A DNA stretch of 64,000 nucleotides from Abditibacterium sp. (GTDB lineage: Bacteria > Armatimonadota > Abditibacteriia > Abditibacteriales > Abditibacteriaceae), in assembly GCA_965246885.1 (NCBI GenBank), contig OZ251992.1:2848001-2912000 (forward strand). Reading direction: 5' to 3'. Below are positions 99-58,340 of the stretch, in pieces. Position 1 is the stretch's first letter, and the number at the start of each line of letters is the position of its first letter. Below the pieces are notes generated by a model. That model saw nothing but the letters and a program-made list of their open reading frames with translations, did no database searches and was not told the DNA's origin. The translations under genes and the position numbers were made by a program.

Positions 99-707
99 AT
101 GACGGCACCACAAGAAGGTTTGGAGTGGGTTTCGCCCGCCGAGTATTTGGAGCGCGAGCGCCGCGCGGAACGGAAAAGCGAATACATCAACGGCACGATT
201 TACGCGATGGCGGGCGTCAATCGCTGGCATGTTACCATTTCGGGAAACGTTGCGGTCAGTTTTGGCAACCAACTCCTTGACAAAAGCTGCGAGCCGTTCG
301 CCCATAACTTGCGCGTGAAGGTGCCGCGCACGACGCTTTACACCTACCCCGACGTGCTGGTCGCGTGTCCACCGATGGAATGGGAAGACGACGAGTTCGA
401 CACGCTCCTCAACCCGACCGTCATCGTCGAAGTGTTGTCGCCTTCGACAAAACGCTACGACCGGGGCGACAAATGGGCGCACTATCAACGCTTGAACTCG
501 CTCTGCGATTACATCTTGGTCTCCCAAGACGAATGTCGCGTCGAACATTACACCCGTTTGCCGGACAATCGCTGGGAATTGGCGGCCTATGAAGACTTGG
601 CGGACGCCTTTCCCATCGAAAGCATCGGCTGCACCCTCGCGTTGCGCGACGTGTACGACCGCATCACCTTCGCTCCCCCTGCCGATAGTGACGGCGGCGC
701 CGTTTAG
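99..707 (+). CDS. Uma2 (DUF820) family PD-(D/E)XK endonuclease-like protein
   Basis: Typical Uma2 motifs: EYINGTIYAMAG, YPDVLV, IVEVLSPST, DRGDKW..YQ, YILVSQD. Confidence 0.92.
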   Translation: MTAPQEGLEWVSPAEYLERERRAERKSEYINGTIYAMAGVNRWHVTISGNVAVSFGNQLLDKSCEPFAHNLRVKVPRTTLYTYPDVLVACPPMEWEDDEFDTLLNPTVIVEVLSPSTKRYDRGDKWAHYQRLNSLCDYILVSQDECRVEHYTRLPDNRWELAAYEDLADAFPIESIGCTLALRDVYDRITFAPPADSDGGAV

Positions 708-1174
708 CACGCCCCTCGCGCTTCTTAGAAAGGATGCGCAAGGCCTTAGCGAACCTTTTGCGCTCCAAGTCGCGCCCGTATTGCCGTTTCTTTTAACAGC
801 CAACAAACGCGGAGAAACGCCGATGTTTTTTGGCTTCCCATCGGCGCCTATTGGCACTCCTCGGCGGGCAGAAATCACAGCGGTGGAGACACTCGGCGCG
901 CCCCTCGCCTCTCTTAGCACGTCGGCGGCCCTCTTTAGCGCGCCTTTCGCCCCTTGTAGCTTGCCTCTCGCCCTTTGTAGCGTGCCTCTCGCCCTTTGTA
1001 GCGTGCCTCTCGCCCTTTGTAGCGTGCCTCTCGCCCTTTGTAGCATGCCTCTCGCGTAATTTAGCTTGCCCCTCGCGTGTTGTTTCTTGCCCCTCGCTAT
1101 GTTTAGCTTGACGGTGGAGGTTTGTAGCTTGCCTCTCGCGGTATTGATCGAAGAAACAAAGGGCGAGAGGCAAG
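705..1174. repeat. Degenerate 21-bp tandem repeat tract (core TAGCGTGCCTCTCGCCCTTTG) with one inverted unit
   Basis: TAGC-type unit starts at 705, 726, 747, then 915, 936, 957, 978, 999, 1020, 1041, 1062, (1083), 1104, 1125. Bases 1156-1174 are the exact reverse complement of 960-978. Confidence 0.92.
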
Positions 1175-1449
1175 ATTAGCAGAGCGACATACCAGAAATT
1201 CACCGCCGCATGCGACCTTTTCACCCCCACAAGCGCCCTTTTTGCTCTCAGTTACGGAAATAGAATTGATTGCGGCAGCAGGCAACTGTTATTAGTCGCT
1301 CCCAACGCCTTGACCACGCATCGGAGAAGGTTAACGGTCTCGCTGAAAGTGACGCCCGTCGCGCGAACGATGGGCGCGGGCGGGTTTCTTTTATCCGCCG
1401 TCGCTCCCAATTGGCCCGCGCCCGCCAAACAGCGAAAGTCAGCACCTCC

Positions 1450-1611
1450 CAACACCCCCAAAGGGGCCGTTCCTACGACCGCATCCAAATCGTCCCCATC
1501 CGCGAACTCCTTTACGAAGACAAACGCCTCGACATCCCGATGAGCTTGGAAGTTTTAAAACGCGCCCAACTCGCGGAAAAGAAGGAGCAGTTGGGGATGT
1601 TTGAGGAGTGA
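1450..1611 (+). pseudogene. Orphan C-terminal remnant resembling a DNA methyltransferase/restriction-endonuclease fusion
   Basis: HPQRGRSYDRIQIVPIRELLYEDKRLDIPMSLEVLKRAQ...EQLGMF resembles the YxRIQIVTIxELL...KRLxxP tail of such proteins; upstream part of the frame does not look protein-like; left boundary approximate. Confidence 0.5.
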
Positions 1612-1619
1612 CGGGGAAA

Positions 1620-1807
1620 GAACCTCACCCCCGGCCCCTCTCCTTGCAGGAGAGGGGAGAAGTGGTTGCGGGTTGGCGGAATAGAGCGCGTCTCGCGTGT
1701 GTGGCTCCCCTCTCCAGCAGGAGAGGGGCTGGGGGTGAGGTCTTACTCAGCAATTTCCACCCCCAATCTCCCCTCTCCTGCAAGGAGAGGGGCCGGGGGT
1801 GAGGTTC
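1620..1807. repeat. Cluster of three REP-like palindromic units (CCCCTCTCC-N-GGAGAGGGG)
   Basis: 1620-1660 and 1767-1807 form a perfect 41-bp inverted repeat; third, slightly variant unit at about 1705-1741; each unit is itself a hairpin. Confidence 0.9.
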
Positions 1808-1881
1808 AACACGCCCCCATCAAACTGAATCATCACAGTGGCAATCCAAGTGCATCAGGCGGGTAGGAGAACATTTCTATC

Positions 1882-3027
1882 ATGCCGATTACCACATCAC
1901 CGAACTCGTATCTGCCGACGATGCAGAAGTTTGATCAGCACTGGGCGCAAGTGAACGCCCATTCTTCCGTGTCTTATGCCGTTGAAGGCGAGGGCGAAGG
2001 TTCTAAGGGCGCGGCGCCGCCCATGCCGTTCGTGTTGCCCAACGGGTATACGCAAGCGCAACTGGGCAACGACCGGCAAGCGTTGACGACGGCCATCGCC
2101 ATTGCGACGCAAAACGCGACGGCGGCGGGTAACGCGAGCCAAACCTATCAGAACGCGCGAACCGTTGTGCGCGGGCGTTTGCAGATGTTGCGCGACGCCG
2201 TGTTGTATTTGATCCCCACGTCGTCTTATGCCAAGACGTTTCCGACGATGCCCACCAACAGCAAGGATGACAACGCGCTTTTCAAGGCGCTCAACGCGAG
2301 CATTTATCTGTGGAACGCCATCTCCGACAATGCCACGTTGCCCGCTCCGGCGAGGAACCTCGTGTTGCGCGACGGCACGACGCGCGCTCAATACGCGCAG
2401 TCCATCATTGACCTGCGCCAGTTGCAAACCGCGAGTGTGAGCGCGACCAAAACCGCCAACGTCGCCATCGCTCAGCGCGACTCGTTGCTGCCCGCGATTC
2501 GCGCGAACTTGGTCTCGTATCGGCAAGGCATCCCCTCGACGCTTGGCCCCACCAACCCGCTCACGAAGTCGCTGCCTGCGCTGTATGCCAAAAAGGGCGC
2601 GACGCCGCCGCCGGTTGCCGTGACCGTTAGCTACGACGCCATCACCAAAGCGACGACCGTGACATGGACGGCTTCAACAGACCCGAACTTGGCGCGCTAC
2701 AAGGTGCGGATTTGCACCGGCGCGAAGTGGAAAGAAGCCAATGTGCGCGCAACCGTGAGCGTCGCTTCGAGCGTTTTGACGTGGAACACGACCGATTTGC
2801 AAGCGGGCCAAACCTATTGCGCCAAGGTTTACGTCGTCCTGCAAAACGGCCAACAACGCGGCTCAACCGCCATGCCCATCACGATTCCCACGCCCAAAGG
2901 TGCGGGCGCAGTGGCGTTGAGCGAGTTGCTTTCCTATACCAACGGCCACTCCGACGAACACACGAGCGAGTTGGTCGGGGTGAACGGAAGCGCGAACGGG
3001 AACGGACGGAAAAACGGGCGTTTGTAG
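1882..3027 (+). CDS. Hypothetical protein, helical N-terminus plus C-terminal fibronectin type III-like domain
   Basis: 381-aa ORF with AGGAG upstream; C-terminal VTWTAS...YKV...LQAGQTYCAKV pattern of FN3. Confidence 0.75.
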   Translation: MPITTSPNSYLPTMQKFDQHWAQVNAHSSVSYAVEGEGEGSKGAAPPMPFVLPNGYTQAQLGNDRQALTTAIAIATQNATAAGNASQTYQNARTVVRGRLQMLRDAVLYLIPTSSYAKTFPTMPTNSKDDNALFKALNASIYLWNAISDNATLPAPARNLVLRDGTTRAQYAQSIIDLRQLQTASVSATKTANVAIAQRDSLLPAIRANLVSYRQGIPSTLGPTNPLTKSLPALYAKKGATPPPVAVTVSYDAITKATTVTWTASTDPNLARYKVRICTGAKWKEANVRATVSVASSVLTWNTTDLQAGQTYCAKVYVVLQNGQQRGSTAMPITIPTPKGAGAVALSELLSYTNGHSDEHTSELVGVNGSANGNGRKNGRL

Positions 3028-3057
3028 CGCGTCCAGAGGACGCTTGGGCGCTTGCGC

Positions 3058-3125
3058 CCGGATGCCGGGGATTTTATATCCCCGATTAGACACACAATCG
3101 GGGATATAAAATCCCCGGCATCCGG
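3058..3125. repeat. Perfect 30-bp inverted repeat with 8-nt loop; arms are themselves palindromic (REP-doublet-like)
   Basis: CCGGATGCCGGGGATTTTATATCCCCGATT (3058-3087) pairs with 3096-3125. Confidence 0.93.
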
Positions 3126-3188
3126 CTTCGCCAAGTGTCCTGCCGGACACAACGCAAGGTTGAATCCAATTTGGTGCTTGACGGGACA

Positions 3189-3268
3189 TCACCCCATATG
3201 CGCGATGATGTTGTCGCCGAACTCCGAGCACTTGATTTCAGTCGCGCCGTCCATTTGGTGGGCGAAGT
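3189..3268 (-). pseudogene. Displaced duplicate of the icd 3' end (att-like scar)
   Basis: 3195-3268 matches 3951-4024 with 7 mismatches in 74 nt; encodes [25 protein letters not shown]. Confidence 0.9.
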
Positions 3269-4024
3269 TACGCTTAATTGGTGTTTCCTATCGTTTGAAC
3301 CTTTCAACCGTTAGGCATTGCGAAATCACGGGGTTGCGGCTTCTCCGCGTAGTATTTCCCCTTGAAGCGATGGTAAGTCATGCCATCCGGCCCTATTACC
3401 ACGAACTCACCTCTCGACGAAATGGATTGGTGTTCGGGATCGGAACGTTGTGCTTCTACGACAACTGAGTCCACAATTCTTCGCGGATTTCTGGTATCCC
3501 AAGGCGTAGCCCCCGAATCTACGTATTCACTGTCTTCTTCGGACGCAGCACTCAGGCGCCCCGCGCTGTCGGCTGCTCTAATCACATAAAAATACTCGCG
3601 CTGTTCTTGTAGCCCCTTGTCCACCCACAGCTTCATCGGGCTACATGGAAAACTGTCGGCGACAAAGCGCAGTTTGGCCAGGGGACGGGCCATGTCCTGC
3701 CTCTTTGAGCGGGAACTGCGGTAAATCCAGTAGCCTTTAGCGCCCGGAACAGTGTCCCAATAGAGCGCGAGCTTTCCTTTGCCGCACGCATGAACCTGCA
3801 ATCCTCCTGGCACTGCGATTTTTGGCAATGCAAAGGCCGCACTACATGAAGCGACGAGGCAACCGAGCAACAATGTGATGTGTTTCATGTGACCCTCCTG
3901 AAGATAAAGTTGGCTAAAGAGCGGCTGTCCGCACTTTCCGGCCCTTAACGCATATGCGCGATGATGTTATCCCCGAACGCCGAACACTTGATTTCAGTCG
4001 CGCCGTCCATGAGGCGGGCGAAGT
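3195..4024. mobile_element. Minimal integrase-less cassette inserted in the icd 3' end
   Basis: Direct repeat of icd terminus 756 bp apart, enclosing one AT-richer gene. Confidence 0.7.
3304..3888 (-). CDS. Secreted FN3-domain protein
   Basis: Signal peptide MKHITLLLGCLVASCSAAFA; LYWDTVPGAKGYWIYRS...GL...EYFYVIRA; AGGAGG upstream; paralogous to the middle of 31169..33730. Confidence 0.85.
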   Translation of the reverse strand: MKHITLLLGCLVASCSAAFALPKIAVPGGLQVHACGKGKLALYWDTVPGAKGYWIYRSSRSKRQDMARPLAKLRFVADSFPCSPMKLWVDKGLQEQREYFYVIRAADSAGRLSAASEEDSEYVDSGATPWDTRNPRRIVDSVVVEAQRSDPEHQSISSRGEFVVIGPDGMTYHRFKGKYYAEKPQPRDFAMPNG

Positions 4025-5237: not shown

Positions 5238-5293
5238 GATATGGGTTTAACAGGTGGAAAAGGTGGGTGTAAGTTTGACAACTGGCTCGACAT

Positions 5294-5944: not shown

Positions 5945-6085
5945 CGCTTCGCCTAACCGCGCGACGGTTGCGCCTACCCAAACCGAAGCGTCGTTTGGGC
6001 AGGCGAAGGCTTGATTTGGGTAAATGAAGCTTTGGTTTGGATGGACAGGGGCTTGATTTAGGCGGGCGAGGCTTTGATTTGGCCC
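5945..6085. repeat. Degenerate 21-bp periodic tract
   Basis: TTTGG/TTTAG at 5994, 6015, 6036, 6057, 6078; CGCCTA at 5950 and 5971; 5971-5983 is near-complementary to 5993-6005. Confidence 0.75.
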
Positions 6086-6103
6086 GATCATTCGTTCGCC
6101 CGG

Positions 6104-6916
6104 TCACAGCGCGAAGATGGCGCCTTTCTTGGAGTCTTGCAGCAGAACGGCGACGACGGGTTCGAGCAAGCAAAAGGAGCGGATGATGAGGATGGCGTCG
6201 TCAATTCCGCCCGCCGATTTGCCGATGAAGTTGATGTTGTGGCGGATTTGGAAAGCGTGCCATGCGAGCGCCCCGCGATACTTTTCGCCGCCAAAGGGCG
6301 CTTCGGGGTCGAGCGGCTGGCCTTCGTCGTTGAGGGCGCGCACCGTCCATGCTTCGCGCTCGTCGGCTCCGACCAACCCGTTCAAGAAGGCGCTCGTATC
6401 GGTGAGGGTGTGTTCCATGCCTTCGCCGTAGGTGTCCTGCATCTCGCGCGACGAGCGCGACAAGAGACGGGTGAGCGCGCCGTTGGGCGTTTCGCCATTG
6501 CGCAGCAAACCGAAGCCGTGAAACTCGCGGCCCAGCAAGAACGGTGGCGAAAGGACGGCGCGGATTTGGTCGCGCTCGGATTCGAGCGGCGCGCGTTCTT
6601 CGTCGCCTTGGCAAAAGCGGGTAAACCCCGCCGCAAGATAGATGTGTTCAAAGGCTTCCCACAGCGTCAGGTAAGAGAGAAACAACTGCGCATTGCGAGA
6701 GACCGACGAAAACGGGCGGCCGGTTCCGCTCAGAGCATCGTAAAACGAGAGCGCCGCGCGGCGGTATTCTTCGGCGGTGCGCTGGTATTGAAAGCGCAGT
6801 TCGTGCGATGCGGTTGCGACCTCTTCGCCGCCGCCCTCCCCCATCCAGTGCCGCCGCGCGAGGTCGCGCACGCGGATTTTGGGCGCGCCGGGGGAAGTGA
6901 GTTGCGGTGTGGGCAT
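6104..6916 (-). CDS. Hypothetical protein with HEPN-like (ApeA-type) signature and a degenerate Rx4H motif
   Basis: LWEAFEHIY and FQIRHNINFIGKS....DD..LI resemble W.AF..Y and Y.VR.NLFHG.K.....D..L of HEPN proteins; the HEPN call is by eye. Confidence 0.6.
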   Translation of the reverse strand: MPTPQLTSPGAPKIRVRDLARRHWMGEGGGEEVATASHELRFQYQRTAEEYRRAALSFYDALSGTGRPFSSVSRNAQLFLSYLTLWEAFEHIYLAAGFTRFCQGDEERAPLESERDQIRAVLSPPFLLGREFHGFGLLRNGETPNGALTRLLSRSSREMQDTYGEGMEHTLTDTSAFLNGLVGADEREAWTVRALNDEGQPLDPEAPFGGEKYRGALAWHAFQIRHNINFIGKSAGGIDDAILIIRSFCLLEPVVAVLLQDSKKGAIFAL

Positions 6917-7987: not shown

Positions 7988-7995
7988 TCCGTTGG

Positions 7996-19752: not shown

Positions 19753-21273
19753 CTACCCTGCCAGCGCGCGCAGCAATTCCCGCAGAATCGCCCAATTGCG
19801 CGCGACGCTTGGAATCGAAACCCACTCGGCGGGCGTATGAGCGCCCCTGATGGTGGGGCCAAACGACACGGCATCCAAACCGGGGAGTTTCTCGCTGAGC
19901 AACCCGCACTCCAAGCCCGCATGCACCACTTCGACACGCGGCAGGTGTCCGCTCACGTTGGCAAAGGCGGCGGCGGTTTGGTCACGCAGGGGCGAGTCCG
20001 CGCGCGGCTCCCAGCCGGGATAGCCGTCGCGTTCTTCGATGCGCGCGCCCGCCGCTTCGCCCATCTCGCGGCACTTCGCCTGCATCCGCGCGATGTCGCC
20101 CGCCACAAAGGAGCGGTTCGAGACGTGCATCTCGACTTCCCCGGCGCTTGTCGCGACTTGCGCGAGGTTGGAAGAGGTCTGCACTTTCCCCTCCCAGCGC
20201 GCGCTCATCGTTTGCACTCCGTGCGGCAGGTCACGGATTAGACTGAGCACCTGCCGCGTCGCGGCAGGGGACATTGGCGCCGCCATGTCGCCCCGCTCGT
20301 TTGCGACTTGAATCGTCAGCCCCGGTTCATCGGCGAGCCAGTGGCTTGTGAGGGCGTCCGCCGCTCTTGTAAGCGGGGCCGCCACCCTTGCGACCGCCGC
20401 TCTTGTAAGCGGGGCCGCCACCCTTGCGACCGCCGCTTCAAGCGATTCGCCGCCCGGCGTGGGGACGGCGACTATCGCCACGCAGTCGCGGGGGATAGCG
20501 TTGTGCGCGGTGCCGCCGTCAAGGGCGACGAGGCGCATTTCGGGCAAAGCGTCGAGAAGTTGCCCTGTCATTTTCAGGGCGTTGCCCAACTTCTCCCCAA
20601 TCTGTATCCCCGAATGGCCGCCCGCCAAGCCCGATACGGAGACGCGGTAGAGCTTCCCATCACCTTGCAACGGCTCGCGCTTGATGGGCAAGTGGAGCGT
20701 CACGCCCGCGCCGCCCGCGCAACCGATGGTGATTTCGTCGTCCTCCTCGGAGTCGAGATTAATCAGGCGCCGCGCGCTCACCAGAGCGGGGTCAAGCAAG
20801 GCGGCGCCATACAGCCCGCTTTCTTCTTCGACGGTGAACAGTAGTTCGAGCGGCGGGTGCGTGGGCGCATCGCCTTCCAAAAGGGCGAGCATGAACGCGA
20901 CGCCGATGCCGTTGTCGGCGCCCAATGTTGTGCCGGTCGCGTAAACATGGTCGCCCTCGCGTCGGGGGATAATGGCATCGCGCTCGAAGTCGAAAGGGGT
21001 ATCGGGCGTCTTCTGGCAAACCATGTCGAGGTGCGCTTGAATGGCGACAGTTGGGGCATCGGGCGCCGCGTTTTTGGAGGGAACGCGCACGACCAAGTTG
21101 CCGCGTTCGTCGCGGGTGTGGGAAACGCCGCGCGCGTCGGCGAGGCTTTCGATGGCGGTGCGCAAAGCTTCTTCTTGCCCCGAAGGGCGCGGGGTGGCGT
21201 TGAGCAGGGCGAAGGCGCGCCACACGGAAGCGGGTTCGAGGTCTTGGTAAGCGGATGGAAGCGGGATATTCAT
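19753..21273 (-). CDS. pepD: Aminoacyl-histidine (beta-Ala-His) dipeptidase, M20 family
   Basis: PRPSGQE, QAHLDMV, TTLGADNGIG, FTVEEE, NLDSE, GGHSG, HAGLECG. Confidence 0.95.
   Translation of the reverse strand: MNIPLPSAYQDLEPASVWRAFALLNATPRPSGQEEALRTAIESLADARGVSHTRDERGNLVVRVPSKNAAPDAPTVAIQAHLDMVCQKTPDTPFDFERDAIIPRREGDHVYATGTTLGADNGIGVAFMLALLEGDAPTHPPLELLFTVEEESGLYGAALLDPALVSARRLINLDSEEDDEITIGCAGGAGVTLHLPIKREPLQGDGKLYRVSVSGLAGGHSGIQIGEKLGNALKMTGQLLDALPEMRLVALDGGTAHNAIPRDCVAIVAVPTPGGESLEAAVARVAAPLTRAAVARVAAPLTRAADALTSHWLADEPGLTIQVANERGDMAAPMSPAATRQVLSLIRDLPHGVQTMSARWEGKVQTSSNLAQVATSAGEVEMHVSNRSFVAGDIARMQAKCREMGEAAGARIEERDGYPGWEPRADSPLRDQTAAAFANVSGHLPRVEVVHAGLECGLLSEKLPGLDAVSFGPTIRGAHTPAEWVSIPSVARNWAILRELLRALAG
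20358..20437. repeat. 36-bp in-frame tandem duplication inside pepD
   Basis: CCGCCGCTCTTGTAAGCGGGGCCGCCACCCTTGCGA x2; protein AAVARVAAPLTR x2. Confidence 0.95.
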
Positions 21274-21307: not shown

Positions 21308-21826
21308 ATGGAGCAGTGGCACGACTTCTGGGTGGTGGCGGGCACGGCGGCGGCAACGCTGCTGGGCTTGCTGTTTGTGGCGTTGTCGGTCAACAAAGAC
21401 CCCATCGCGGCGCGACCCTTATTGCGCTCGCTCGCGCGCCAGACATTTCTGTCATTGGGGATTATTCTGCTGCTCGCCGTGACGAGCTTGGTGCCTTCGC
21501 GCGCCCTATCGCCGCACGCGGTGGGCGGTTACTTCATCTTTGGCGCGGTGGCGACGCTGGTGTTATCGGGCACGGTGCACCTGCGAACGCTACGCGAGAA
21601 CCGGCGACGGCGGCAGGAAGGCGCACGGGCACGGGCGTTCCACGAGGGCGAGTATCTGGCGCGCGTGGCGGTGTATAACCTCGGACTGTTGTGTATTTTG
21701 GCGGCGGGGCGGGCGCTGTGGCGCGGCGACGTAGATGGCGCGCGCTTTCTGCTACCTGCCGTTGTCCTGCTGGGAGCGCTGGCGCTGGGCAACTCGTGGG
21801 GGTTGGTGCTGCGCGTAGAGGAGTAA
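21308..21826 (+). CDS. Hypothetical integral membrane protein
   Basis: WHDFWVVAGTAAATLLGLLFVALS N-terminus; about 5 TM segments. Confidence 0.85.
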   Translation: MEQWHDFWVVAGTAAATLLGLLFVALSVNKDPIAARPLLRSLARQTFLSLGIILLLAVTSLVPSRALSPHAVGGYFIFGAVATLVLSGTVHLRTLRENRRRRQEGARARAFHEGEYLARVAVYNLGLLCILAAGRALWRGDVDGARFLLPAVVLLGALALGNSWGLVLRVEE

Positions 21827-21834
21827 TTCGGGCA

Positions 21835-22020
21835 CTGACGGACATCTGCCAACGGACGGCGCGCGTCTGTCGCGCTTCCGCCGATGTCTGCCATTGGTTG
21901 ACGCGCATCTGCCAACCGGCGGCGCACATGCGCCAACGACTGACAGAGTGTGGCGGAGGTCGGCCCCATGTCTGTCGCTCGTTGACAGACATGGGCGACT
22001 CGAAGAATTACGTCCGCGCG
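21835..22020. repeat. Degenerate 21-bp periodic tract between convergent genes
   Basis: TCTG at 21845, 21866, 21887, 21908, 21971 with variants at 21929, 21992, 22013; 12-bp hairpin 21965-21995. Confidence 0.8.
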
Positions 22021-22026
22021 GGGCGC

Positions 22027-33779: not shown

Positions 33780-34027
33780 AGTGCGCGGGATTGGGAAGTG
33801 CGTTCGCGGGGCTGAATCGGGTGCATGAGAATGGGCCAATGGCGCGTTTTTCCGCGCGACACCTCAACTTTCTCACAACCACGCGGATGACGCAAGGGCA
33901 GAAAGATTAAATTTTCGATTTATTTTCGGAGCGCGGGGACTTGTCACCGCTTTGGCCCAGCCGACTTGTCGGCATCCTTTCGAGAAATAGAACGTTTCAC
34001 GCGGCAAATGGCGAAGATGGAAGCGTA

Positions 34028-34198
34028 GCAGACGTCGTTTGCGCGTTGATTGTCGTCGGTGGCGTCTTAACTGACGTCGTTTGCGCGTTGATTGTCGTCG
34101 GTGGCGCCTTAACTGACGTCGTTTGCGTCTTGATTAACGTCGTTGCTGCCTTAACTGACGTCGTTTGCGTCTTGATTAACGTCGTTTGTCTGTCAACT
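34028..34198. repeat. 21-bp periodic tandem repeat with 42-bp higher-order unit
   Basis: CGTCG at 34033, 34054, 34075, 34096, 34117, 34138, 34159, 34180. Confidence 0.93.
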
Positions 34199-34322
34199 CA
34201 TTAAGGAAAAAGCGGGAAGGGCGCGCTTTGCGCATTGGACAAGGCACTCGCTGACGCTTCGCGTTCTTGGTTTTCGGTCTCCGATACCCTTAGCTGGCTC
34301 AACACCCCAAACTGTTCTCCTG

Positions 34323-39896: not shown

Positions 39897-42278
39897 CTAA
39901 AAAGAGTGTCCAATTTCAAGGGAAAAGGTGGTGTTCTTGCGCGGGGCTTCGCCCACAGTGAAGTTAGGCTGGTCGGTGGAGACATACGTCGCGCGGCCTG
40001 TCAGCACCAAATTGCGGCGCAAATCATAGGCGAGCGCGAAGCGCCCGACTTGCTGGCGGGAAAAGCCGCGCCCACCCACGACGGCACTCGCTTCGTCTTG
40101 CGAGTTGATGTCGGCGAACTGAATACTGCCAAAAGCAGTGAGCTTGGGCATCAAGCGGAAATAGCCATCGGCGCGCAACGATTCGGCGCCGCCGAAGTTA
40201 GTCGGGAAGCGCGGCGCGATGGGCAAGCCAAGCGGCGCCCCGCGCTGGTAGTAGAAATAGTCAGCGTCGCGCACGCCTTGCAAATAGGCGAGGTACGAAA
40301 TCGAGTTGAGGCGCGAGTATTCCAGCGTCAGGCCCGCGCGCTTGGGGTCGGAGGGCGTGAACAGTTGCACGCCGATGGTGCTCCCGTTGCGGTTTTCGAT
40401 GTTGTTCTTGGCGTTGGTGGCGAGGTCATCGAGCACGATTTCGCCGTAGGTGCGCACGCCGCGCGCAACACCAGTTTCAGCGTAAGCCGAAACGACCGCG
40501 TTGGTGCCGCTTTCGGCGGCGGTGAGCGTGGGACGGTCAATCAAATACAGCGAAACAGGCGTGAAAGCGCCAAAGAAGTCTTTGGCCTTGAAGCCCGACT
40601 TGGGGGCAAGCAGGGTGTTGGCGACGCCCACGCGCGTGGTGTTGCCGATCTTCACGCTCAAGTTTTGGCCGTAAAGCGAACGCTGGCCGCCCACAGGCCC
40701 GCGACCCAAGCGCGCGTACAAACTCTCGAAGCGATACGAGCCGCGCTCGAACTTGGCCGAGAACCCATCCAAGCCGCCCGCCGCGTCGCCCAACAGCGAG
40801 GTGCCAAAACTGCCCACGCCCCAATAATACTCTTTGCGCCCGATGTCGAAACTCAGGCCGCGCACGAACTTTCCGGCGTCGTAGGATAAATACGCTTTGC
40901 GAAACGTGGACTGACTTCCGCCGCCTTGCACTAACTTGGTGCCGGTGTCAACCGAGCCGTAGAAGTTGAGACTGCTACCGACCGTGCCGAACACGTTGAG
41001 ACGCGAGTCAACGCCCGACTTGAGGCGTCCGGCGCCGTATTGCTCCTCGAACGGAAGCAAGGTGTTCGCCTTGACGCCGCCCTCGGCGCGGGCGCGGGTG
41101 AAACCGGACACGCCGACGGAAAACTTGCCGCTTGCGCCCGCCTCATCGAGGCGGCTGTCTTCAACGCCTAATTTTTGCAAGTCGCGCCGGAAGTCGCGCG
41201 TCAAAATCGCCAAGCCCGCCGACGAGCGACCGCGTTCGTCCTCGTCAGCGTTGTCGAGCGCCTCGCGGATAAAGCCCGCGATTTGGGCGCGCGACAGGAT
41301 AATGTCTTCGGCATAGCGATGGCGACGCGCGCCATCGTCTTGAAAGGTGCTGGCAGGCTGCGACTTGATTAGTCCCCGCGCCGCGAGGGACGCCAGCAGT
41401 TCGTAGGTGCGGTCGGCCTTGGGGACGGACGTATTGGAAGCGCCGGTTTCAAACGGAACAGCGACTCCGGTGGACGAACCAACTGCCCCGGTGGACAATT
41501 GACCTGTATGCGCCGACGGTTGACCTGTACGCGCCGACGGTTGGCCTGTACGCGCCGACGGTTGGCCTGTACGCGCCGACGATCCATTTATGTCGGTGAG
41601 CGCCGTAACTACATCGGCGGTTGAAAGAACTGTACCGCTCTCCGAGTAAACGAGGTTGCCCGTCGCGCGATTTGCCTCCACAATGCCGAGCTTGACGAGC
41701 GCCACGATGTCGGCGCCGCGCAGAACGGGAAGCGTTTGGCCCGCTTGCAACCCTTGGGCGCTTCCCGCTCCGACCGAAACGACGGCCCCGTTGATGGCGG
41801 TGATGGGCACCGTCGCGCCGCCCGATGCAACGGGCGCGGGCGCTAACATTTCAGGAGTCCGCGTGTCGGTCGGGTTTGTCGCAGTGCTGTCCAATGGCCC
41901 CGATGGAGCGGGCACTGTTGGCGCGGGCGGCAGGGCTTCGACATCCACAAAGCGCACGGTTTCGCCCAACACGGTCGCGCCCGGAGCGAGCGAGATCACG
42001 CGGCAAAGGGAGTCGTCCGTCCGCACTTGGATGATTTGCGCGCGCAACACTTCGGCGCCGTTTTGCGAAAGCGCGTAAATCGTCCCGATGATGGCGCCGT
42101 CCTTTTGCCCGATGGCAAGGGTGGCGCTTTGCGCGCTGATTTGTGAAACGACCGCAGTTTTGGGCGCCGTTGCCGCTTCTTGCGCGCGCACGGCGCAAAC
42201 CAACGGGGGCGCCGCAACGAGTAATGGCAGCGTTAGTAAGAAGGGCAGGAAGCGCCGCGAGGAACAATGGAAGGTCAT
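39897..42278 (-). CDS. Outer-membrane beta-barrel protein with internal SLH-like domain (OmpM/SlpA- or Wzi-like)
   Basis: Signal peptide; YELLASLAARGLI...LSRAQIA...LTRDFRRDLQKLGV; amphipathic beta strands; C-terminal F. Confidence 0.8.
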   Translation of the reverse strand: MTFHCSSRRFLPFLLTLPLLVAAPPLVCAVRAQEAATAPKTAVVSQISAQSATLAIGQKDGAIIGTIYALSQNGAEVLRAQIIQVRTDDSLCRVISLAPGATVLGETVRFVDVEALPPAPTVPAPSGPLDSTATNPTDTRTPEMLAPAPVASGGATVPITAINGAVVSVGAGSAQGLQAGQTLPVLRGADIVALVKLGIVEANRATGNLVYSESGTVLSTADVVTALTDINGSSARTGQPSARTGQPSARTGQPSAHTGQLSTGAVGSSTGVAVPFETGASNTSVPKADRTYELLASLAARGLIKSQPASTFQDDGARRHRYAEDIILSRAQIAGFIREALDNADEDERGRSSAGLAILTRDFRRDLQKLGVEDSRLDEAGASGKFSVGVSGFTRARAEGGVKANTLLPFEEQYGAGRLKSGVDSRLNVFGTVGSSLNFYGSVDTGTKLVQGGGSQSTFRKAYLSYDAGKFVRGLSFDIGRKEYYWGVGSFGTSLLGDAAGGLDGFSAKFERGSYRFESLYARLGRGPVGGQRSLYGQNLSVKIGNTTRVGVANTLLAPKSGFKAKDFFGAFTPVSLYLIDRPTLTAAESGTNAVVSAYAETGVARGVRTYGEIVLDDLATNAKNNIENRNGSTIGVQLFTPSDPKRAGLTLEYSRLNSISYLAYLQGVRDADYFYYQRGAPLGLPIAPRFPTNFGGAESLRADGYFRLMPKLTAFGSIQFADINSQDEASAVVGGRGFSRQQVGRFALAYDLRRNLVLTGRATYVSTDQPNFTVGEAPRKNTTFSLEIGHSF
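41495..41582. repeat. 21-bp in-frame tandem repeat in the OMP linker
   Basis: TTGRCCTGTAYGCGCCGACGG about x4; protein (SARTGQP)n. Confidence 0.93.
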
Positions 42279-52513: not shown

Positions 52514-55132
52514 TTGCCGTTTGTGCTCTCGGCGTTCGCGCTCCTTCCGCTTCCGGTTCTTATCACACCGAGATTATTGGGAGACAGCATCGTCGAGTTC
52601 AGTTGGGTATTGTGGCAGGCGCTCGCTTCGGTGTGGGCTTTCGCGTGCGCCTTGGGCACGGCGCGCTGGGCAGTCGGCGCGTTGGGAGCGGGGAGCGGAA
52701 GCGGAGCGAGCACGAATCAATCTCTGATGGGCGACGGGCGGGGGGCGCACATGTTCGGACTACGCGCCCTCGCTTTGGCGTGGGGTCTCAACGCTCTGGG
52801 CGATGCGCTGTTCTTTATCTGGCAAAGTCGCCTTGGCTCCGACGTTTTTCAAAGCGCCTCGCGGGTACCGTATCTGAGCGCCAACCTTGTTTTGTTTGTC
52901 GGATTGCTCGCCCTTTTACACGCCGACCAGTTGTACGACCGCGTGCGCGCGGCGCTCGACTCGCTACTGTTGACCGTGTGCGCGGGCCTGATGATGTGGC
53001 GCTTCGTGTTCGCTCCGGCGTTGCAAAGTGCGGCGGGCACGGCGGCACGCCCGATTCTGGTTATTTACACCGTGTTGGTATTGGGACTACTTTTCCTTTC
53101 TCTCTTTTCACTCGCGTCCAGCCGCACCACGCCCCAATCGCTACGCCCGCGCGCGATTTTGTGCGCAGCGTTTCTGCTGATTTGCGCGTCGAACACACTC
53201 CTTCTCGTGGGCGCCGCGCATAACAGCCAACGGACGCAGATTCTGGGCACGATATTGTGGAGCGCAGCCATGCTGGTGGCAGGGCTGTCGGCACTACAAT
53301 GCCGCGATCTCTTGCCCACCCCCGGAACGGAACCCATCTTCCGCCTCGCCCGCCTCGTGCCGTCCATCTTGCCTTACGGCTTTTTACTCATCGCCATCGC
53401 GCTCGCGGCGGACGTGCTCGACGAGTTGGACAGTCATGAGCGCACCAACATAACTGTCGCCATCATCATCCTCTCGTTGCTGGCGCTCCGGCAAATTTTG
53501 GTGGCGATTCAAAACGTGCGCTTGCAAAACCAGTTAGTACGCTTCTCGCTTGAATTGGACGACCTCGTCGCGCTCCGCACGCGCCAATTGGAAGCGCAAA
53601 ACCGCTTCTCAAGGCGCCTCAATGCCGCTCAGTTGACCCAAGAAAGCCTCGCGGCCCTGCTGGAGTTCGCGCCGATTCTCTTACCCAAGCACCCCTTCGC
53701 GCTGTGGCTAACGACCGACGGCGACGCCCTGAAGTTGGCGGGCACCAACGCGCCGCCGGAGTGGGCGGCGTGGCTCGCCGAACACGCGCCCACCGAAGGC
53801 GATTTCGCCACTAATCGCACCCCGCCCATGCTGCGCGTCGCGCCGCTCCGACGAGGTGAGAGCGTTTTGGGCTTTCTGGCCATCATCATCGAGCCGCAAG
53901 GCTTCGACCCGACCGAAGACGCCATTTTGAAGTTCATGGCGCGCGAGGGTGCCCTCGCTCTCCAAAACGCGCGGCTCTACGAACAGGCGCTTGTGGACGC
54001 CGAACACGACGACGTAACGGGCCTGCTCAACCATCGCGGCGTGCAAGAGCGCCTCGCCAAACTGGTCGCCGCCGCGCACCTGTCGGGCGAGCCGTTGGGC
54101 GTGGCGCTTATGGACTTGGACAGGTTCAAGCTGTTCAACGACACCTACACGCACGTTGTGGGCGACCTCGTTTTGAAACACGTCGCCGCCATTTTGTGCG
54201 CTGAAATGGGCGAGGGCGCCCTCTTTGGGCGCTTTGGCGGCGACGAGTTTTTGCTCATCTTCCCCGGCGCGCACCGCGAAGCGGTGTTACACCGCATCGA
54301 AGTGCTGGGCGATCTCCTCGCGTCGCGCGGCTTTCTCATCCCCGGTCAGGGCCAGCCCGTCCCTCTCGCCGTTTCGTTCGGTGTGGCGATGTTCCCCGAC
54401 GACGCGACCGGCCTGCAACGGCTGCTTTCGGTCGCCGACTCGCACCTCTTCGCCGCCAAGAATTCCGGCCTGAGCGTGCGCTCCTCGACCGAAATGGAGC
54501 GCACGCGCGCGCGCCTCCGCACCCACGACTCCTTTAGCGCCCTCGATGCCATCGTCGCCGCCATTGATTCCAAGGACTCTTACACCCGCGCCCACTCCGA
54601 GGATGTTACCGAGTTGGCGCTACAATTGGCGAGCGCACTCGGCTTGTCCGAAGAAACCCGCAAGATGCTGCGCACTGGCGCGCTCTTGCACGATGTCGGC
54701 AAAATCGCCGTTCCCGACGAGGTGCTGTGTAAACCCGGACAACTCACGCCCGAAGAGTTTGCCCAAATGAAGACCCACCCTTGGATCGGTGCCATCCTCG
54801 TTTCGGCCATGCCGGGGCTGGGCAACATCATCGAAATGGTGCGCAACCACCACGAGCGCTTCGACGGAACCGGCTACCCCGATCGCTTGGCGGGCGAGGC
54901 TATCCCGCCCTTGGGTCGCTTGCTCGCCGTCGCCGATGCATACTCGGCCATGACGCAACACCGCCCGTATCGCCGCGCCTTGTCCGAAGCCGAAGCGTTG
55001 GAGCGCATCGAAGCGGGCGCCGGCACGCAGTTCGACCCTCATATGGCCGCTACTTTTGTGCGCCTCAAACGCGCCGCACTCAACGGCACCCGCGCACAAG
55101 CCCACAACCCGGCGAGCGCAGAGGCGGCCTAA
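52514..55132 (+). CDS. Membrane GGDEF plus HD-GYP c-di-GMP signalling protein
   Basis: Multi-TM N-terminus; GRFGGDEF; LLHDVGKI; HHERFDGTGYP; start uncertain. Confidence 0.93.
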   Translation: MPFVLSAFALLPLPVLITPRLLGDSIVEFSWVLWQALASVWAFACALGTARWAVGALGAGSGSGASTNQSLMGDGRGAHMFGLRALALAWGLNALGDALFFIWQSRLGSDVFQSASRVPYLSANLVLFVGLLALLHADQLYDRVRAALDSLLLTVCAGLMMWRFVFAPALQSAAGTAARPILVIYTVLVLGLLFLSLFSLASSRTTPQSLRPRAILCAAFLLICASNTLLLVGAAHNSQRTQILGTILWSAAMLVAGLSALQCRDLLPTPGTEPIFRLARLVPSILPYGFLLIAIALAADVLDELDSHERTNITVAIIILSLLALRQILVAIQNVRLQNQLVRFSLELDDLVALRTRQLEAQNRFSRRLNAAQLTQESLAALLEFAPILLPKHPFALWLTTDGDALKLAGTNAPPEWAAWLAEHAPTEGDFATNRTPPMLRVAPLRRGESVLGFLAIIIEPQGFDPTEDAILKFMAREGALALQNARLYEQALVDAEHDDVTGLLNHRGVQERLAKLVAAAHLSGEPLGVALMDLDRFKLFNDTYTHVVGDLVLKHVAAILCAEMGEGALFGRFGGDEFLLIFPGAHREAVLHRIEVLGDLLASRGFLIPGQGQPVPLAVSFGVAMFPDDATGLQRLLSVADSHLFAAKNSGLSVRSSTEMERTRARLRTHDSFSALDAIVAAIDSKDSYTRAHSEDVTELALQLASALGLSEETRKMLRTGALLHDVGKIAVPDEVLCKPGQLTPEEFAQMKTHPWIGAILVSAMPGLGNIIEMVRNHHERFDGTGYPDRLAGEAIPPLGRLLAVADAYSAMTQHRPYRRALSEAEALERIEAGAGTQFDPHMAATFVRLKRAALNGTRAQAHNPASAEAA

Positions 55133-55157
55133 CCCCGCTTCGGCACCCGACTTGCAA

Positions 55158-55180
55158 TTTGTAGCCGCGCGGGTTACAGT
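55158..55180. promoter_or_regulatory. Putative Rrf2 operator 1
   Basis: TGTAGC-N7-GTTACA palindrome upstream of the Rrf2 gene. Confidence 0.7.
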
Positions 55181-55198
55181 TAATAGGTAGAGTTTCCG

Positions 55199-55630
55199 AT
55201 GGCCCAAAATTGTCGCTTTGCGTTCGCCGTTCACGTCTTGAGTTCCCTCGCCCTTCACCCCGAAGGCGCGATGAACTCCGATCAACTCGCGCAGACCGTC
55301 AATACTAACCCCGTCGTCATTCGCCGCTTGCTGCTTGACCTACGCGACGCGGGCCTCGTCGAAACCCAGCGCGGGCCGGGGGGAGGCGCCAAATTAGCCC
55401 GCGACGCCAAAGACATCTCGCTCGCGCAAATCTACACCGCCGCGTCGGGCGAGTTCTCGCTGTTTGGCGACCATCCCAACGAACCCGCGCAGTGTTGCCC
55501 CGTCGGGCGCGGCATCAAAGCCGTGCTCGAAGGCGTCGCGCAAAAAGCCGTCGCGTGCGTCAAAGAGCATTACGCCGCTATGTCGCTCGCCGATGTCGTC
55601 GCCCAACTCCAAGCCGAACCGCCCGCCTAA
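55199..55630 (+). CDS. Rrf2-family regulator (YwnA/HypR/SifR-like)
   Basis: RFAFAVHVL, VNTNPVVIRR, GPGGG, CPVG. Confidence 0.93.
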   Translation: MAQNCRFAFAVHVLSSLALHPEGAMNSDQLAQTVNTNPVVIRRLLLDLRDAGLVETQRGPGGGAKLARDAKDISLAQIYTAASGEFSLFGDHPNEPAQCCPVGRGIKAVLEGVAQKAVACVKEHYAAMSLADVVAQLQAEPPA

Positions 55631-55651
55631 GGCGCTTCACCGCGCCGCGCC

Positions 55652-55675
55652 GCCGCTTGAAAGAGCGGCTTTTTT
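55652..55675 (+). terminator. Intrinsic terminator after the Rrf2 gene
   Basis: GCCGCT-TGAAAG-AGCGGC followed by TTTTTT. Confidence 0.75.
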
Positions 55676-55684
55676 GGACTGACA

Positions 55685-55707
55685 TTTGTAACCAACTCAG
55701 TTACCAT
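55685..55707. promoter_or_regulatory. Putative Rrf2 operator 2
   Basis: TGTAAC-N7-GTTACC upstream of the azoreductase gene. Confidence 0.7.
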
Positions 55708-55711
55708 CGCC

Positions 55712-56338
55712 ATGACCATCTTACACCTCGATTCCTCGCCGCGCGCCGCGTCCCATTCGCGCGCCCTGTCCGCCGAAGCCGTCACCTCACTGCGCGCCCA
55801 CTTCCCCGAAGCGAAAGTCATCTACCACGACTTAGGCCGCCAGCCCTTGCCCGTCGTGAGCGAGGACTGGGTAAGCGCCGCCTTCTCCGACCCCGCGACG
55901 CACTCGCCCGAACTCAAGCAAGCCATCGCCCTGTCCAATACCCTCGTGGACGAGCTACTCGAAGCCGACATTCTCGTCGCGGGGGTGCCGATGTATAACT
56001 TCTCCATCCCCGCCGCTTTCAAGCTGTGGATAGACCAAGTCGTTCGCTTCGGGCGCACCTTCGCCATCGGCGCCACCGGCATCGCGGGCTTGGTGCCCGA
56101 CAAGCCCACCCTCTTCGTCACCTCGCGCGGCGGCGGCGGCTACGGGCCGGGCGAGTCGCGCGAAGCCGTCAACTTTGAAGGCCCGTATCTTAAGGCCGCA
56201 TTCTCCTTCATCGGCATCAAAAATACCCACTTTGCGCACCTCAACAACGCCAACGACGACGCGCTGCGCCCCGCCGAACTCGAAGCCGCGCGCACCGAGG
56301 TTGCGAAGTTCGTCGCGTCGGTCGGGGGTGCTTTGTGA
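55712..56338 (+). CDS. azoR: FMN-dependent NADH-azoreductase
   Basis: LHLDSSPR...[23 protein letters not shown]. Confidence 0.92.
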
Positions 56339-57075
56339 ACCTGCGCGGCAAAACATTCATAGTCACCGGCGCCACGTCCGGCATTGGCCGCGCGAGCGCC
56401 CTCAAATTGGGCAAGCACGGCGCCAACGTCATCTTGTCGGGCCGTAGCGTTGCCGAGGGAGAAAAGACACGCGCGGCGGTTGAAGAAGCGGGCGGTAAAG
56501 CCGCCTTCCTCGCGGGCGATTCGGCGCTGTTAGAAACGCACCGTGCCCTTGTCGAGGCCGCCAAGGAGCATTTCGGCGGGCTTGACGGCGCCTTCAACAA
56601 TGCGGGCTATGGGGAGTTCTTGCCGCTCGCTGAGGCCGATGGCGACTCCTATGAGCGACAGATGAGCGTCAACGTCAAGGGCGTTTTCTTCGCCCTGCAA
56701 GCACAACTGCTCGTCCTCAAAGCGGGCGGCTCCGTCGTGATAAACGCGAGCATCGCGGCGGGAGGCATGGCGGGCGCGGGGATATACGCGGCGACCAAAG
56801 GCGCAGTTATCTCTCTCGGTCGTAGTGCGGCGTTGGAAGTTGCGACACGCGGCGTGCGCGTCAACATCGTTAGCCCCGGCCCCATCCTCACCGAAGGCGC
56901 CTTGCACGTAATGGGGCCGGAGAACTTTGAAAAGCAAATGACGCCCCTCGTTCCGATGGGCCGCGTCGGACGTCCAGAAGAAATCGCTTCTGTCGTCGCC
57001 TTCCTGCTTTCCGACGGCGCCAGTTTCATCACCGGCCAAAATCTCAACGTGGATGGCGGCGTCACCATCCGCTAA
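56335..57075 (+). CDS. SDR-family oxidoreductase
   Basis: [27 protein letters not shown]. Confidence 0.93.
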
Positions 57076-57087
57076 TCAAAGCACGCT

Positions 57088-58161
57088 ATGTCCAACATCC
57101 TTCTTTCGCCCGTCCGCATGGGCGCGTTTCAGCTTCCCAACCGCGTCGTGATGGCGCCGCTCACGCGGTGCCGCGCCGACGCGGGGCGCGTTCCCTCCGA
57201 GGCCGCGCGACTTTATTACACCCAACGCGCGAGTGTTGGACTGATAATTACCGAAGCGACCTCGGTAGACCCGATGGGCGTTGGCTACCCGGACACACCG
57301 GGTATCTGGAACGCCGAACAGGTCGCGGGCTGGCGGCGCATCACCGACTCCGTTCACGAAGCGGGCGGGCAAATCGTTTTGCAACTCTGGCACGTCGGGC
57401 GCATTTCGCACCCGTCGTATCTCGGCGGCGCCCTGCCCGTCGCACCGTCCGCCATCGCTGCAAAGGGGCACGTGTCGCTTGTGCGGCCCCTTGCCGATTA
57501 TCCCACGCCGCGTGCCCTCAAAACTTCGGAACTCCCCGCCATCATCGAAGCCTATCGCTTGGGCGCGCAAAACGCCAAAGAAGCGGGCTTTGACGGCGTC
57601 GAAATTCATGGCGCCAACGGCTACTTGCTCGACCAGTTCTTGCAAGACTCCACCAATCACCGCACAGACCAATACGGCGGCTCCATCGAAAACCGCGCGC
57701 GCTTGGCGCTCGAAGTGACTGATGCCGTCGTTTCCGTCTGGGGCGCCAAGCGCGTCGGGTATCACATCTCGCCGCGCGCCGACGCGCACGACATGGGCGA
57801 CTGCGACTTGCCCGCGACTTTTGGGCACTTGGTGCGCGAACTGTCGAAGCGGCAAATCGCCTTCGTTTTTTCGCGCGCCGCCCGCGACGACGAGGCGTTG
57901 ACAGTCGGGTTGCGCCGCCAGTTCGCGGGCGCGTGGATCGCCAACCAAGGTTTTACGCCCGCAGAAGCCATCGCCACCTTGGAGCGCGGCGACGCCGATG
58001 CCGTTTCGTGGGGCCAGCAGATCATCGCCAACCCCGATTTGGCGCGCCGCCTCGAATTGAGTGCGCCGCTCAACCAGCCCAACCCCGCCACTTTCTACAC
58101 TTACCCCTCTGGCGACAAGAACGAGGGCTATACCGATTACCCGTTCCTCAACGAAAAGTAA
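57088..58161 (+). CDS. Old yellow enzyme / alkene reductase (NemA-like)
   Basis: MAPLTR, QLWHVGR, EIHGANGYLLDQF, YGGSIENR, GYTDYP. Confidence 0.95.
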   Translation: MSNILLSPVRMGAFQLPNRVVMAPLTRCRADAGRVPSEAARLYYTQRASVGLIITEATSVDPMGVGYPDTPGIWNAEQVAGWRRITDSVHEAGGQIVLQLWHVGRISHPSYLGGALPVAPSAIAAKGHVSLVRPLADYPTPRALKTSELPAIIEAYRLGAQNAKEAGFDGVEIHGANGYLLDQFLQDSTNHRTDQYGGSIENRARLALEVTDAVVSVWGAKRVGYHISPRADAHDMGDCDLPATFGHLVRELSKRQIAFVFSRAARDDEALTVGLRRQFAGAWIANQGFTPAEAIATLERGDADAVSWGQQIIANPDLARRLELSAPLNQPNPATFYTYPSGDKNEGYTDYPFLNEK

Positions 58162-58182
58162 ATCGGCCCCAAGGGAGCGCCG

Positions 58183-58340
58183 AAGTAGGTAAATCAACGG
58201 AAGATCTACCTATTTCGGACGGTGAAATAGGTAGATCGGCGTAAGATTTACCTATTCCAGCGAGCGATTAAGGTATTTTGCGGCTTGCGGGAGGTAAATC
58301 TTCCCGTGATCTACCTATTTCGCGGCTCGAACTACGTAGA
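58183..58340. repeat. 21-bp lattice of alternately oriented TAGGTA/TACCTA units
   Basis: TAGGTA 58186, TACCTA 58207, TAGGTA 58228, TACCTA 58249, AAGGTA 58270, GAGGTA 58291, TACCTA 58312, TACGTA 58333. Confidence 0.88.

What the first reader, a model, noticed from the sequence alone, without database searches (positions are those of the whole stretch)
705..58340. Six sequence-unrelated tracts share an exact 21-nt lattice, often with inverted units: possible undescribed repeat-generating or DNA-structuring system
Seen: tracts at 705-1174, 5945-6085, 21835-22020, 34028-34198, 41495-41582 and 58183-58340 have different unit sequences. Each keeps a strict 21-nt register even where units are very degenerate, and at least four include reverse-complemented units or hairpins. 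Four begin within about 25 nt of a stop codon. Known: 21 bp is two B-DNA helical turns and also 7 codons. Inference: ordinary slippage would give varied periods, so a common period with unrelated sequence suggests one mechanism. Options are a templated or fold-back synthesis process with a 21-nt ruler, phased binding arrays for a nucleoid protein, or decayed heptad-repeat ORFs.
Basis: partly seen in the sequence, partly recalled or inferred. Interest (0 to 1): 0.8.

Follow-up and report, generated by a model that had tools for sequence, protein, structure and literature searches.

The report
Runaway 21-bp arrays from gene cassette
About 300 repeat arrays with a strict 21-base period are scattered through this bacterium's genome; they are likely escaped copies of an array that, across several phyla, sits just upstream of one unstudied gene family, whose protein is predicted to form a dimer that would span about two DNA turns.

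Summary
The 21-nt lattice is real and genome-wide: 134 intergenic loci at lag 21 against 0-2 at lags 19, 20, 22 and 23; about 300 arrays in at least 10 multi-copy families plus singletons. The six tracts fall into five families, not six, and one is an in-frame insertion in a conserved gene. Intergenic arrays show no codon bias, so they are not decayed heptad genes.

Following one family led to an unnamed ~220-aa protein family (helical hairpin plus FN3; 2,819 clusters). 44 of 56 of its loci have a 21/42-nt array just upstream, 1 of 56 downstream. The scan noted this gene-array link before on other DNA.

New here: the arrays escape. This genome holds two such genes and ~300 gene-less arrays. 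One gene-linked array has orphan kin, some inside genes, and an exact 169-nt duplicate brackets a four-gene insertion. Orphans also occur in some, not all, other gene-bearing genomes. Predicted antiparallel homodimer (0.70 against control 0.01).

Best reading: a phased protein-binding array reshuffled and spread by in-register recombination. Binding and the copying step are untested. It works like REP/RAYT but fails REP membership.

The parts
700..1367 (.). Composite 21-nt array (family f8), gene-less; strong core 889-1140, weak middle 763-868, inverted unit 1162-1179; starts at the stop of a Uma2 gene
   Evidence: 970-1367 recurs inverted at C1:1501704-1502101 (90%); kin at C1:1786316 and 1309743
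5945..6086 (.). Degenerate dyad-symmetric 21-nt array (f32), gene-less, ends 18 nt from the stop of ORF 6104-6916(-)
   Evidence: lag-21 identity 0.54, dyad p=0.005, 2 other loci
21810..22024 (.). Main-family mosaic dyad array between convergent genes
   Evidence: main-family matrix score 7.2; matrix scan locus
33996..34200 (.). 21/42-nt array without dyad (f11) upstream of a DinG-type helicase; no such array seen upstream of the orthologue in G003, G010 or G012
   Evidence: kin at C1:2110020 (82%)
41453..41583 (-). Main-family array inserted in frame in a variable linker of a conserved 764-aa protein; net about +17 codons against 5 orthologues
   Evidence: matrix score 7.7
39897..42191 (-). 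Host gene of the in-frame array; orthologues in 12 of 12 genus relatives
58178..58340 (.). Dyad 21/42-nt array (f12), 22 nt after the stop of a flavin oxidoreductase
   Evidence: kin at C1:1103763
1882..3027 (+). Helical-plus-FN3 gene 515 nt beyond the tract-1 block; possibly a distant relative of the array-linked family, not established
   Evidence: Pfam fn3 at its cut-off; hhalign to the family only 12% probability, E=0.0025; its paralogue at C1:1664364 has no array

Best explanation
The tracts are likely gene-less copies of the phased 21-bp array that sits directly upstream of an unnamed helical-hairpin-plus-FN3 gene family, whose predicted two-fold dimer would bind DNA once per two helical turns. 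SHOWN: the arrays, their families and fine-grained mosaic units; the gene-array link across phyla; two family genes in this genome, each with an array 41-75 nt upstream; orphan kin of gene-linked arrays here and in other genomes, with homology limited to the array; in-frame insertions; one exact array duplicate around an inserted four-gene block. PREDICTED: an antiparallel homodimer through the long helix (55 residues, about 80 A by standard helix rise, against 71 A for 21 bp). INFERRED: the dimer tiles the array and holds the period while sequence drifts. Units are reshuffled by in-register slippage and gene conversion in either orientation. Whole arrays of about 6-9 units are copied to new tolerant sites (just after stop codons, variable protein linkers) by host recombination, perhaps helped by the protein pairing two arrays. 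This lineage had a burst; the gene that seeded the main family is lost, unassembled or acts in trans.
For: Gene-array link: 26 of 38 loci in the own phylum have a 21/42 array in the 600 nt upstream, 4 more have period 22/23, 1 of 38 downstream; median gap 82 nt, 8.8 units, 16 of 26 dyad. 18 of 18 upstream and 0 of 18 downstream in two other phylum samples and one viral contig. A metagenome scan with the main-family core gave 7 of 10 hits in such arrays, 6 with the gene start directly behind; the 7th contig ends in the array. Own genome: C1:525622-526317 (hhalign 97.7%) and C1:1335829-1336473 (95.2%), each with an upstream array. Four f4 orphans and one main-family tract score 10.4-15.4 against the gene-linked f4 profile (control maximum 8.5); f4 copies lie in frame in urea carboxylase and at the start of LpxB. 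In G048 two orphans match gene-linked arrays over the array only; G223 has an orphan of its gene-linked family. Orphans: 6.5 per 100 kb here, 8 in 169 kb of G036 (9 gene hits), 3 in 196 kb of G048, against 3 calls (2 look like coding heptads) in 652 kb from 10 family genomes where the gene was not found. PrmA carries a net insert of 35 codons = 5x21 nt against 5 orthologues. The four genes between two 100% identical 169-nt arrays are absent at that site in G003, G010 and G012. Homodimer ipSAE 0.70, best control 0.01 (mark reached by 20 of 30 solved pairs and 1 of 23 single chains; runs agree in >=64% of contacts; pLDDT >=86). Conserved K69, R73, R81 (98%), Q88 and R98. Left and right half-units assort independently (3.69 against 3.73 pairs of 8), as half-sites would and selected hairpins would not.
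Against: DNA binding was not tested, and neither domain resembles a known DNA-binding or catalytic fold. K69 lies in the predicted dimer interface, so some conserved basic residues may be structural. The main family (about 200 of 279 arrays) has no linked gene in this genome; its tie to the gene rests on a 14-nt core that I chose as the search pattern. None of the six window tracts directly precedes a confirmed family gene. The gene is not sufficient: 0 orphans in 100 kb of G162 (8 copies), 0 in 60 kb each of G132 and G063, 0 in 120 kb of G003, and 0 in 20 kb each of G173, G274 and G187. 'Gene not found' is weak, since profiles A1 and A2 missed this genome's own two genes. G036 regions were partly chosen around known gene loci. 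Loci within one genome are not independent. Net insert sizes in UvrA, RecG, urea carboxylase and the window gene are not clean multiples of 7 codons. One host-derived 21-nt duplication exists at C1:3048342.
Confidence: 0.5

Rival explanations
1. The dispersed arrays are selected, functional sites: the family protein (or another protein) acts as a global regulator or nucleoid organiser, and the host keeps arrays where it needs them.
For: Even spread along the chromosome, 16-25 per 250-kb bin; 245 of 1,230 gaps >=100 nt hold one; several G036 orphans lie 5' of genes.
Against: No promoter enrichment: divergent gaps 52 of 228 (23%) against 384 of 1,681 (23%) background. Arrays sit nearer the upstream stop in 103 of 138 co-directional gaps. 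Species-specific: 0 of 26 family genomes hold the core 13-mer. In-frame copies lie in UvrA, PrmA, RecG, DnaX and FtsK linkers.
Confidence: 0.17
2. The array works as RNA: a leader of the gene's transcript that the protein binds, with orphans arising through an RNA intermediate.
For: Always 5' of the gene, 2-356 nt from the start; 3'-end bias of orphans; one reverse transcriptase gene in the genome.
Against: No orientation bias relative to flanking transcription (8 same/7 opposite, 10/13, 4/7); no within-unit pairing selection; no Rfam match in the window. The reverse transcriptase sits in an unrelated operon, 3 kb from the nearest array.
Confidence: 0.1
3. A sequence-blind replication or repair quirk of this lineage duplicates 21 nt of any DNA, and gene conversion then builds families.
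For: Many singleton units; a host-derived 21-nt duplication in a prepilin-type gene fragment; mild excess at lag 21 in coding DNA.
Against: Most arrays belong to families with kin far away. The same period marks one gene family across phyla. Isolated single units are scarce (18 against 4 control in intergenic DNA). No Argonaute was found.
Confidence: 0.1
4. They are REP/BIME-type elements moved by the genome's Y1 (RAYT/TIRYT) transposases.
For: Five Y1 matches in the genome; 3'-end bias and in-frame copies are REP-like (PMC3733652, passages); two Y1 genes lie 1.2 and 3 kb from an array.
Against: The Y1 genes are flanked by their own inverted repeats, and only 3 of their 61 dispersed loci lie near an array. 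Y1 genes occur in 24 of 26 family genomes, including those without arrays. GTAG-tagged hairpins in 0 of 220 arrays, CGTC-tagged in 11 of 220.
Confidence: 0.08
5. Decayed heptad-repeat ORFs.
For: 21 = 7 codons; coding tracts show a slightly higher third-position mismatch (0.40 against 0.31).
Against: No codon-phase bias in 210 intergenic arrays (p=0.87) or 26 gene-linked arrays (p=0.11); open frames 3.07 against 3.12 in permutations; the same family is read in different frames in different host proteins.
Confidence: 0.02

Closest known systems
REP/REPIN/BIME elements with RAYT or TIRYT (PMC3733652 and PMC3116915, passages read)
   Same: Species-specific families of short repeats, hundreds of copies, mostly intergenic near 3' ends, some in frame in genes; a cluster sits beside one partner gene and other copies are dispersed.
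   Different: The partner has no HUH transposase fold. There is no terminal tag or conserved hairpin. What is conserved is the period, not the sequence. The array lies only 5' of the gene, and whole tandem arrays are dispersed.
Small dispersed repeats (SDR) of Nostoc, 21-27 nt (recalled; named only in PMC3116915; the original paper was not held)
   Same: Size near 21 nt, dispersal, insertion among other repeats.
   Different: As recalled, SDRs are discrete conserved elements, often single or nested. Here units are degenerate mosaics in strict tandem phase, single units are rare, and a partner gene is linked.
Rickettsia palindromic elements (via PMC3733652 passage)
   Same: In-frame insertion into otherwise intact housekeeping genes.
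   Different: RPEs are single palindromes, not phased tandem arrays, and have no comparable gene.
Phased protein-binding arrays: AraC/XylS direct repeats, plasmid parC/iterons, Tn7-type transposase end arrays (all recalled, not tested against sequence)
   Same: Tandem sites spaced about two helical turns apart, next to the gene for the binding protein.
   Different: No HTH, RHH or DDE protein is linked (no rve match); unit sequence differs between close paralogues; arrays spread without the gene.
Heptamer STRR-type arrays that bracket four-helix-bundle genes (earlier scan notes; such heptamer arrays seen)
   Same: Small helical-protein gene with mosaic short-period arrays and orphan copies.
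   Different: Period 7 with arms on both sides, against period 21 on the 5' side only; period 7 is minor here; the genome's one PF05635 gene has no 21-nt array beside it in the tract list.

Membership tests
REP/REPIN (RAYT-associated) | Stem-loop tagged at one end by GTAG or CGTC | tested here: not met
   GTAG 0 of 220, CGTC 11 of 220 (permutation 1.5)
REP/REPIN (RAYT-associated) | Elements flank a Y1 tyrosine transposase gene | tested here: not met
   Four Y1 loci read: flanked by other inverted repeats, not 21-nt arrays
REP/REPIN (RAYT-associated) | Conserved hairpin pairing | tested here: not met
   Half-units assort independently, 3.69 against 3.73
REP/REPIN (RAYT-associated) | Many species-specific, mostly extragenic copies near 3' ends | tested here: met
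MITE | Terminal inverted repeats | tested here: not met
   Longest inverted end match 4-8 nt in most minor-family arrays; 11-16 nt in 6 of 44
MITE | Target-site duplication | tested here: inconclusive
   Relatives too distant for empty-site comparison at base level
Nostoc SDR | Discrete 21-27-nt element with conserved structure, found as single or nested insertions (recalled) | tested here: inconclusive
   Few isolated units, 18 against 4 control; source paper not held
CRISPR array | Constant repeat alternating with unique spacers | tested here: not met
   Head-to-tail mosaic units without spacers; true CRISPR spacing (64-67 nt) is a separate peak
Heptad-coding genes or remnants | Open frame with third-position substitution bias | tested here: not met
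AraC/XylS-type or partition/iteron binding arrays | Cognate HTH/RHH DNA-binding protein encoded beside the array | tested here: inconclusive
   Adjacent protein is helical hairpin plus FN3 (Z 11.3, rmsd 1.9, 89 aligned); N-domain best Z 6.8
AraC/XylS-type or partition/iteron binding arrays | Demonstrated sequence- or phase-specific DNA binding | not testable with these tools
   needs EMSA or ChIP

The most novel reading that the evidence does not exclude
A new kind of selfish or domesticated element. A non-catalytic helical-hairpin-FN3 dimer reads DNA phase rather than sequence, polymerises on 21-bp arrays and synapses them. This drives in-register shuffling, copying of arrays to new sites, and array-targeted integration of foreign gene blocks: a RAYT/REP-like partnership without a transposase, which in this lineage produced about 300 arrays and new repeat peptides in core proteins.
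Probability: 0.25. Interest if true: 0.9.

Novelty: categorically new. Interest (0 to 1): 0.74.

Why it matters
How short bacterial interspersed repeats arise and spread is a long-open question, with a candidate protein known only for REPs. Here a large unstudied protein family (2,819 clusters at 50% identity) is tied to arrays that conserve period but not sequence, and this genome shows those arrays spreading to about 1.2% of its DNA, into core proteins and around an acquired gene block. The pairing gives a direct bench test: one small protein, one defined DNA, a clear phase prediction. If it holds, it is a sequence-tolerant, phase-reading DNA binder and a route for repeat birth and gene acquisition.

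Tried and rejected
Generators sought in the own genome: Argonaute, none (0 in G000, 1 of 13 genus genomes); rve integrase, none; Y1 transposases present but tied to other repeats; one reverse transcriptase and Cas1, with no array link beyond one array inside a decayed cas operon; PF05635 in 10 of 13 genus genomes, so it does not track arrays.

No tRNA or Rfam match in the window. No RNA holder listed.

The family protein has no NCBIfam or PADLOC match and no convincing Pfam match: Maf_N in 2 and SoxE in 1 of 37 members, E>=0.016. It has no match in annotated phages or plasmids and 1 viral contig. No clear fold match for the N-domain; the Atlas gave only hypothetical clusters. A 10.5-nt AT periodicity was weak (power share 0.19 against 0.10 flat, no significance test). 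The second dyad axis 10.5 nt from the first is a mathematical consequence of period 21, not evidence.

Literature searches found no description: 219 papers hold 4 of 5 terms; one listed, none on this by title or abstract start; 0; 0; 0. The library lacks most subscription journals, and no supplements were read.

Rows dropped: L259 (same gene as L257) and L282 (own gene) before the count of 38; L411, L412 and L414 (fragments or duplicate) before the count of 18. 279 of 544 raw segments were kept after removing weak and 3-periodic coding hits, and some of the 51 'coding' tracts are ordinary heptad proteins or false small ORFs. Sampling of the Planctomycetota-side genomes was small (20 kb each of three), so orphan density there is open.


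Full report
OBSERVATION. The window is C1:2848001-2912000 of a 3.56-Mb, 62.5% GC genome, called Abditibacteriota in an earlier scan note (not tested separately). All six tracts have 21 and 42 as best lags, above every shuffle. Four carry inverted units on the lattice; four lie within 22 nt of a stop. Two claims need correction: 21835 and 41495 belong to one family, and 41495 is inside a conserved gene, in frame. The middle of tract 1 (763-868) is not demonstrably periodic. Short-read contigs from two runs reach into two tracts from both sides, which argues against artefact.

GENOME-WIDE. Period 21 dominates: 281 TRF rows of score >=60 against 5 at 20 and 3 at 22; 134 intergenic loci against 0-2 at neighbouring lags. 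I kept 279 tracts (228 intergenic, 51 coding); a matrix scan raised this to 307, 43 kb (0 hits in the reversed control). About 200 share one degenerate dyad matrix. The rest form nine small multi-copy families (one further cluster is ordinary coding heptads) and about twenty singletons. 117 of 279 show lattice-locked inversion. Units are fine mosaics: column linkage decays within a few bases, and left and right halves assort independently. There is no codon phase. Arrays lie nearer the upstream stop in 103 of 138 co-directional gaps, are not enriched in divergent gaps, and have no orientation bias. The core 13-mer is found in 0 of 26 family genomes. In-frame copies occupy variable linkers of UvrA, PrmA, RecG, DnaX, FtsK and urea carboxylase. 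In PrmA the net insert is exactly 105 nt; in the other four genes aligned the linker was partly replaced and sizes are not clean. Two 100% identical 169-nt arrays bracket four genes that are missing at that site in three relatives, the pattern expected from integration at an array (inference).

THE PARTNER GENE. A metagenome scan with the main-family core returned 10 stretches. Seven were 21-nt mosaic dyad arrays, and six showed the same ~227-aa gene starting directly behind, in varied neighbourhoods. The family is large (2,819 representatives at E<=0.001) and unnamed. The model shows a helical hairpin with a 55-residue helix and a C-terminal FN3 domain; the N-domain has no clear match. A homodimer is supported, not shown: 0.70 against 0.01, antiparallel about residue 60. 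In the own phylum 26 of 38 loci have a 21/42 array upstream, 4 have 22/23, and 1 has one downstream. In samples from two other phyla plus one viral contig it is 18 of 18 upstream and 0 downstream. Each gene copy has its own unit, and close paralogues can differ. Three earlier scan notes reported this gene-array link on other DNA; I found it before reading them and tested it here.

ORPHANS. This genome has two confirmed members (hhalign 97.7% and 95.2%), each with an array 41 or 75 nt upstream. The f4 array has orphan kin at distant sites, some in frame in genes. The main family has no linked gene here. In G048 and G223 orphans match gene-linked arrays, and in G048 homology stops at the array edges, so arrays move without the gene. 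Orphan density is 6.5 per 100 kb here, 8 in 169 kb of G036 and 3 in 196 kb of G048, but 0 in 100 kb of G162, which has 8 gene copies. It is at background in 652 kb from ten genomes where the gene was not found. The gene thus looks necessary in this small sample but not sufficient, and absence calls are weak because the profiles missed this genome's own genes.

MECHANISM. I commit, at 0.5, to a DNA-binding model. A two-fold dimer about two helical turns long tiles the array, which would explain why period and dyad persist while sequence drifts. In-register slippage and conversion make the mosaics. Host recombination copies 6-9-unit blocks into tolerant sites, possibly aided by protein-mediated pairing. 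Arrays, gene link, orphan kinship and insertions are shown; the dimer is predicted; binding, ruler and copying route are inferred. Rivals: selected regulatory or nucleoid sites (0.17), an RNA leader (0.10), a sequence-blind duplication quirk (0.10), RAYT-driven REPs (0.08), heptad remnants (0.02).

COMPARISON. It works like REP/RAYT, a partner gene with an adjacent repeat cluster and dispersed copies (PMC3733652 and PMC3116915; passages read). It fails the tag, hairpin and transposase tests, and Y1 genes occur in 24 of 26 relatives regardless of arrays. Nostoc SDRs, AraC-type sites and partition or transposon-end arrays are recalled resemblances only. Eight literature searches found no description, within a library that lacks most subscription journals.

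VERDICT. A real, surprising and directly testable feature: an undescribed gene-plus-phased-array cassette whose arrays have run away across one genome. Interest 0.74.

Noticed in passing
window 20348-20437: 36-nt tandem duplication (2.3 copies, 97%) in frame inside an M20 peptidase gene; not on the 21 lattice.
   Followed up: no
window 1620-1810 and 3028-3155: Hairpin repeats on both sides of the helical-FN3 gene; the downstream one belongs to the inverted-repeat family that flanks the Y1 gene at C1:1335092 (about 28 loci).
   Followed up: partly
G000 C1:1313165-1321563 (L048): 480-aa reverse transcriptase in an operon with three large genes, the last with a WGR/PARP-like start by eye; possibly a defence-type RT system.
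   Followed up: no
G000 C1:2529977-2550048 (L050): Long CRISPR-type array beside a decayed cas operon; a main-family 21-nt array sits between cas4 and cas1. An intact cas4-cas1-cas2 lies at C1:3124368-3126334.
   Followed up: partly
G000 C1:3048342-3048392: Host-derived 21-nt duplication in a prepilin-type N-terminal gene fragment, between natural 6-nt repeats 21 nt apart.
   Followed up: partly
G000 C1:1564571-1565617 and 2317084-2318103: Two paralogues with a doubled helical domain weakly like the family's N-domain (hhalign 19%), without upstream arrays.
   Followed up: partly
L237, L238, L286, L287: Family members whose upstream arrays have period 23 (three palindromic units) or 22/44: natural variants for testing a protein ruler.
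   Followed up: no
L071-L150: Heptamer arrays with the same central palindromic core as the main family, often with inverted arms, in many phyla; a possible ancestral link between period 7 and period 21.
   Followed up: no
G274 and G223: All 15 pattern hits in G274 are on the forward strand and all 16 in G223 on the reverse, across several contigs; unexplained.
   Followed up: no
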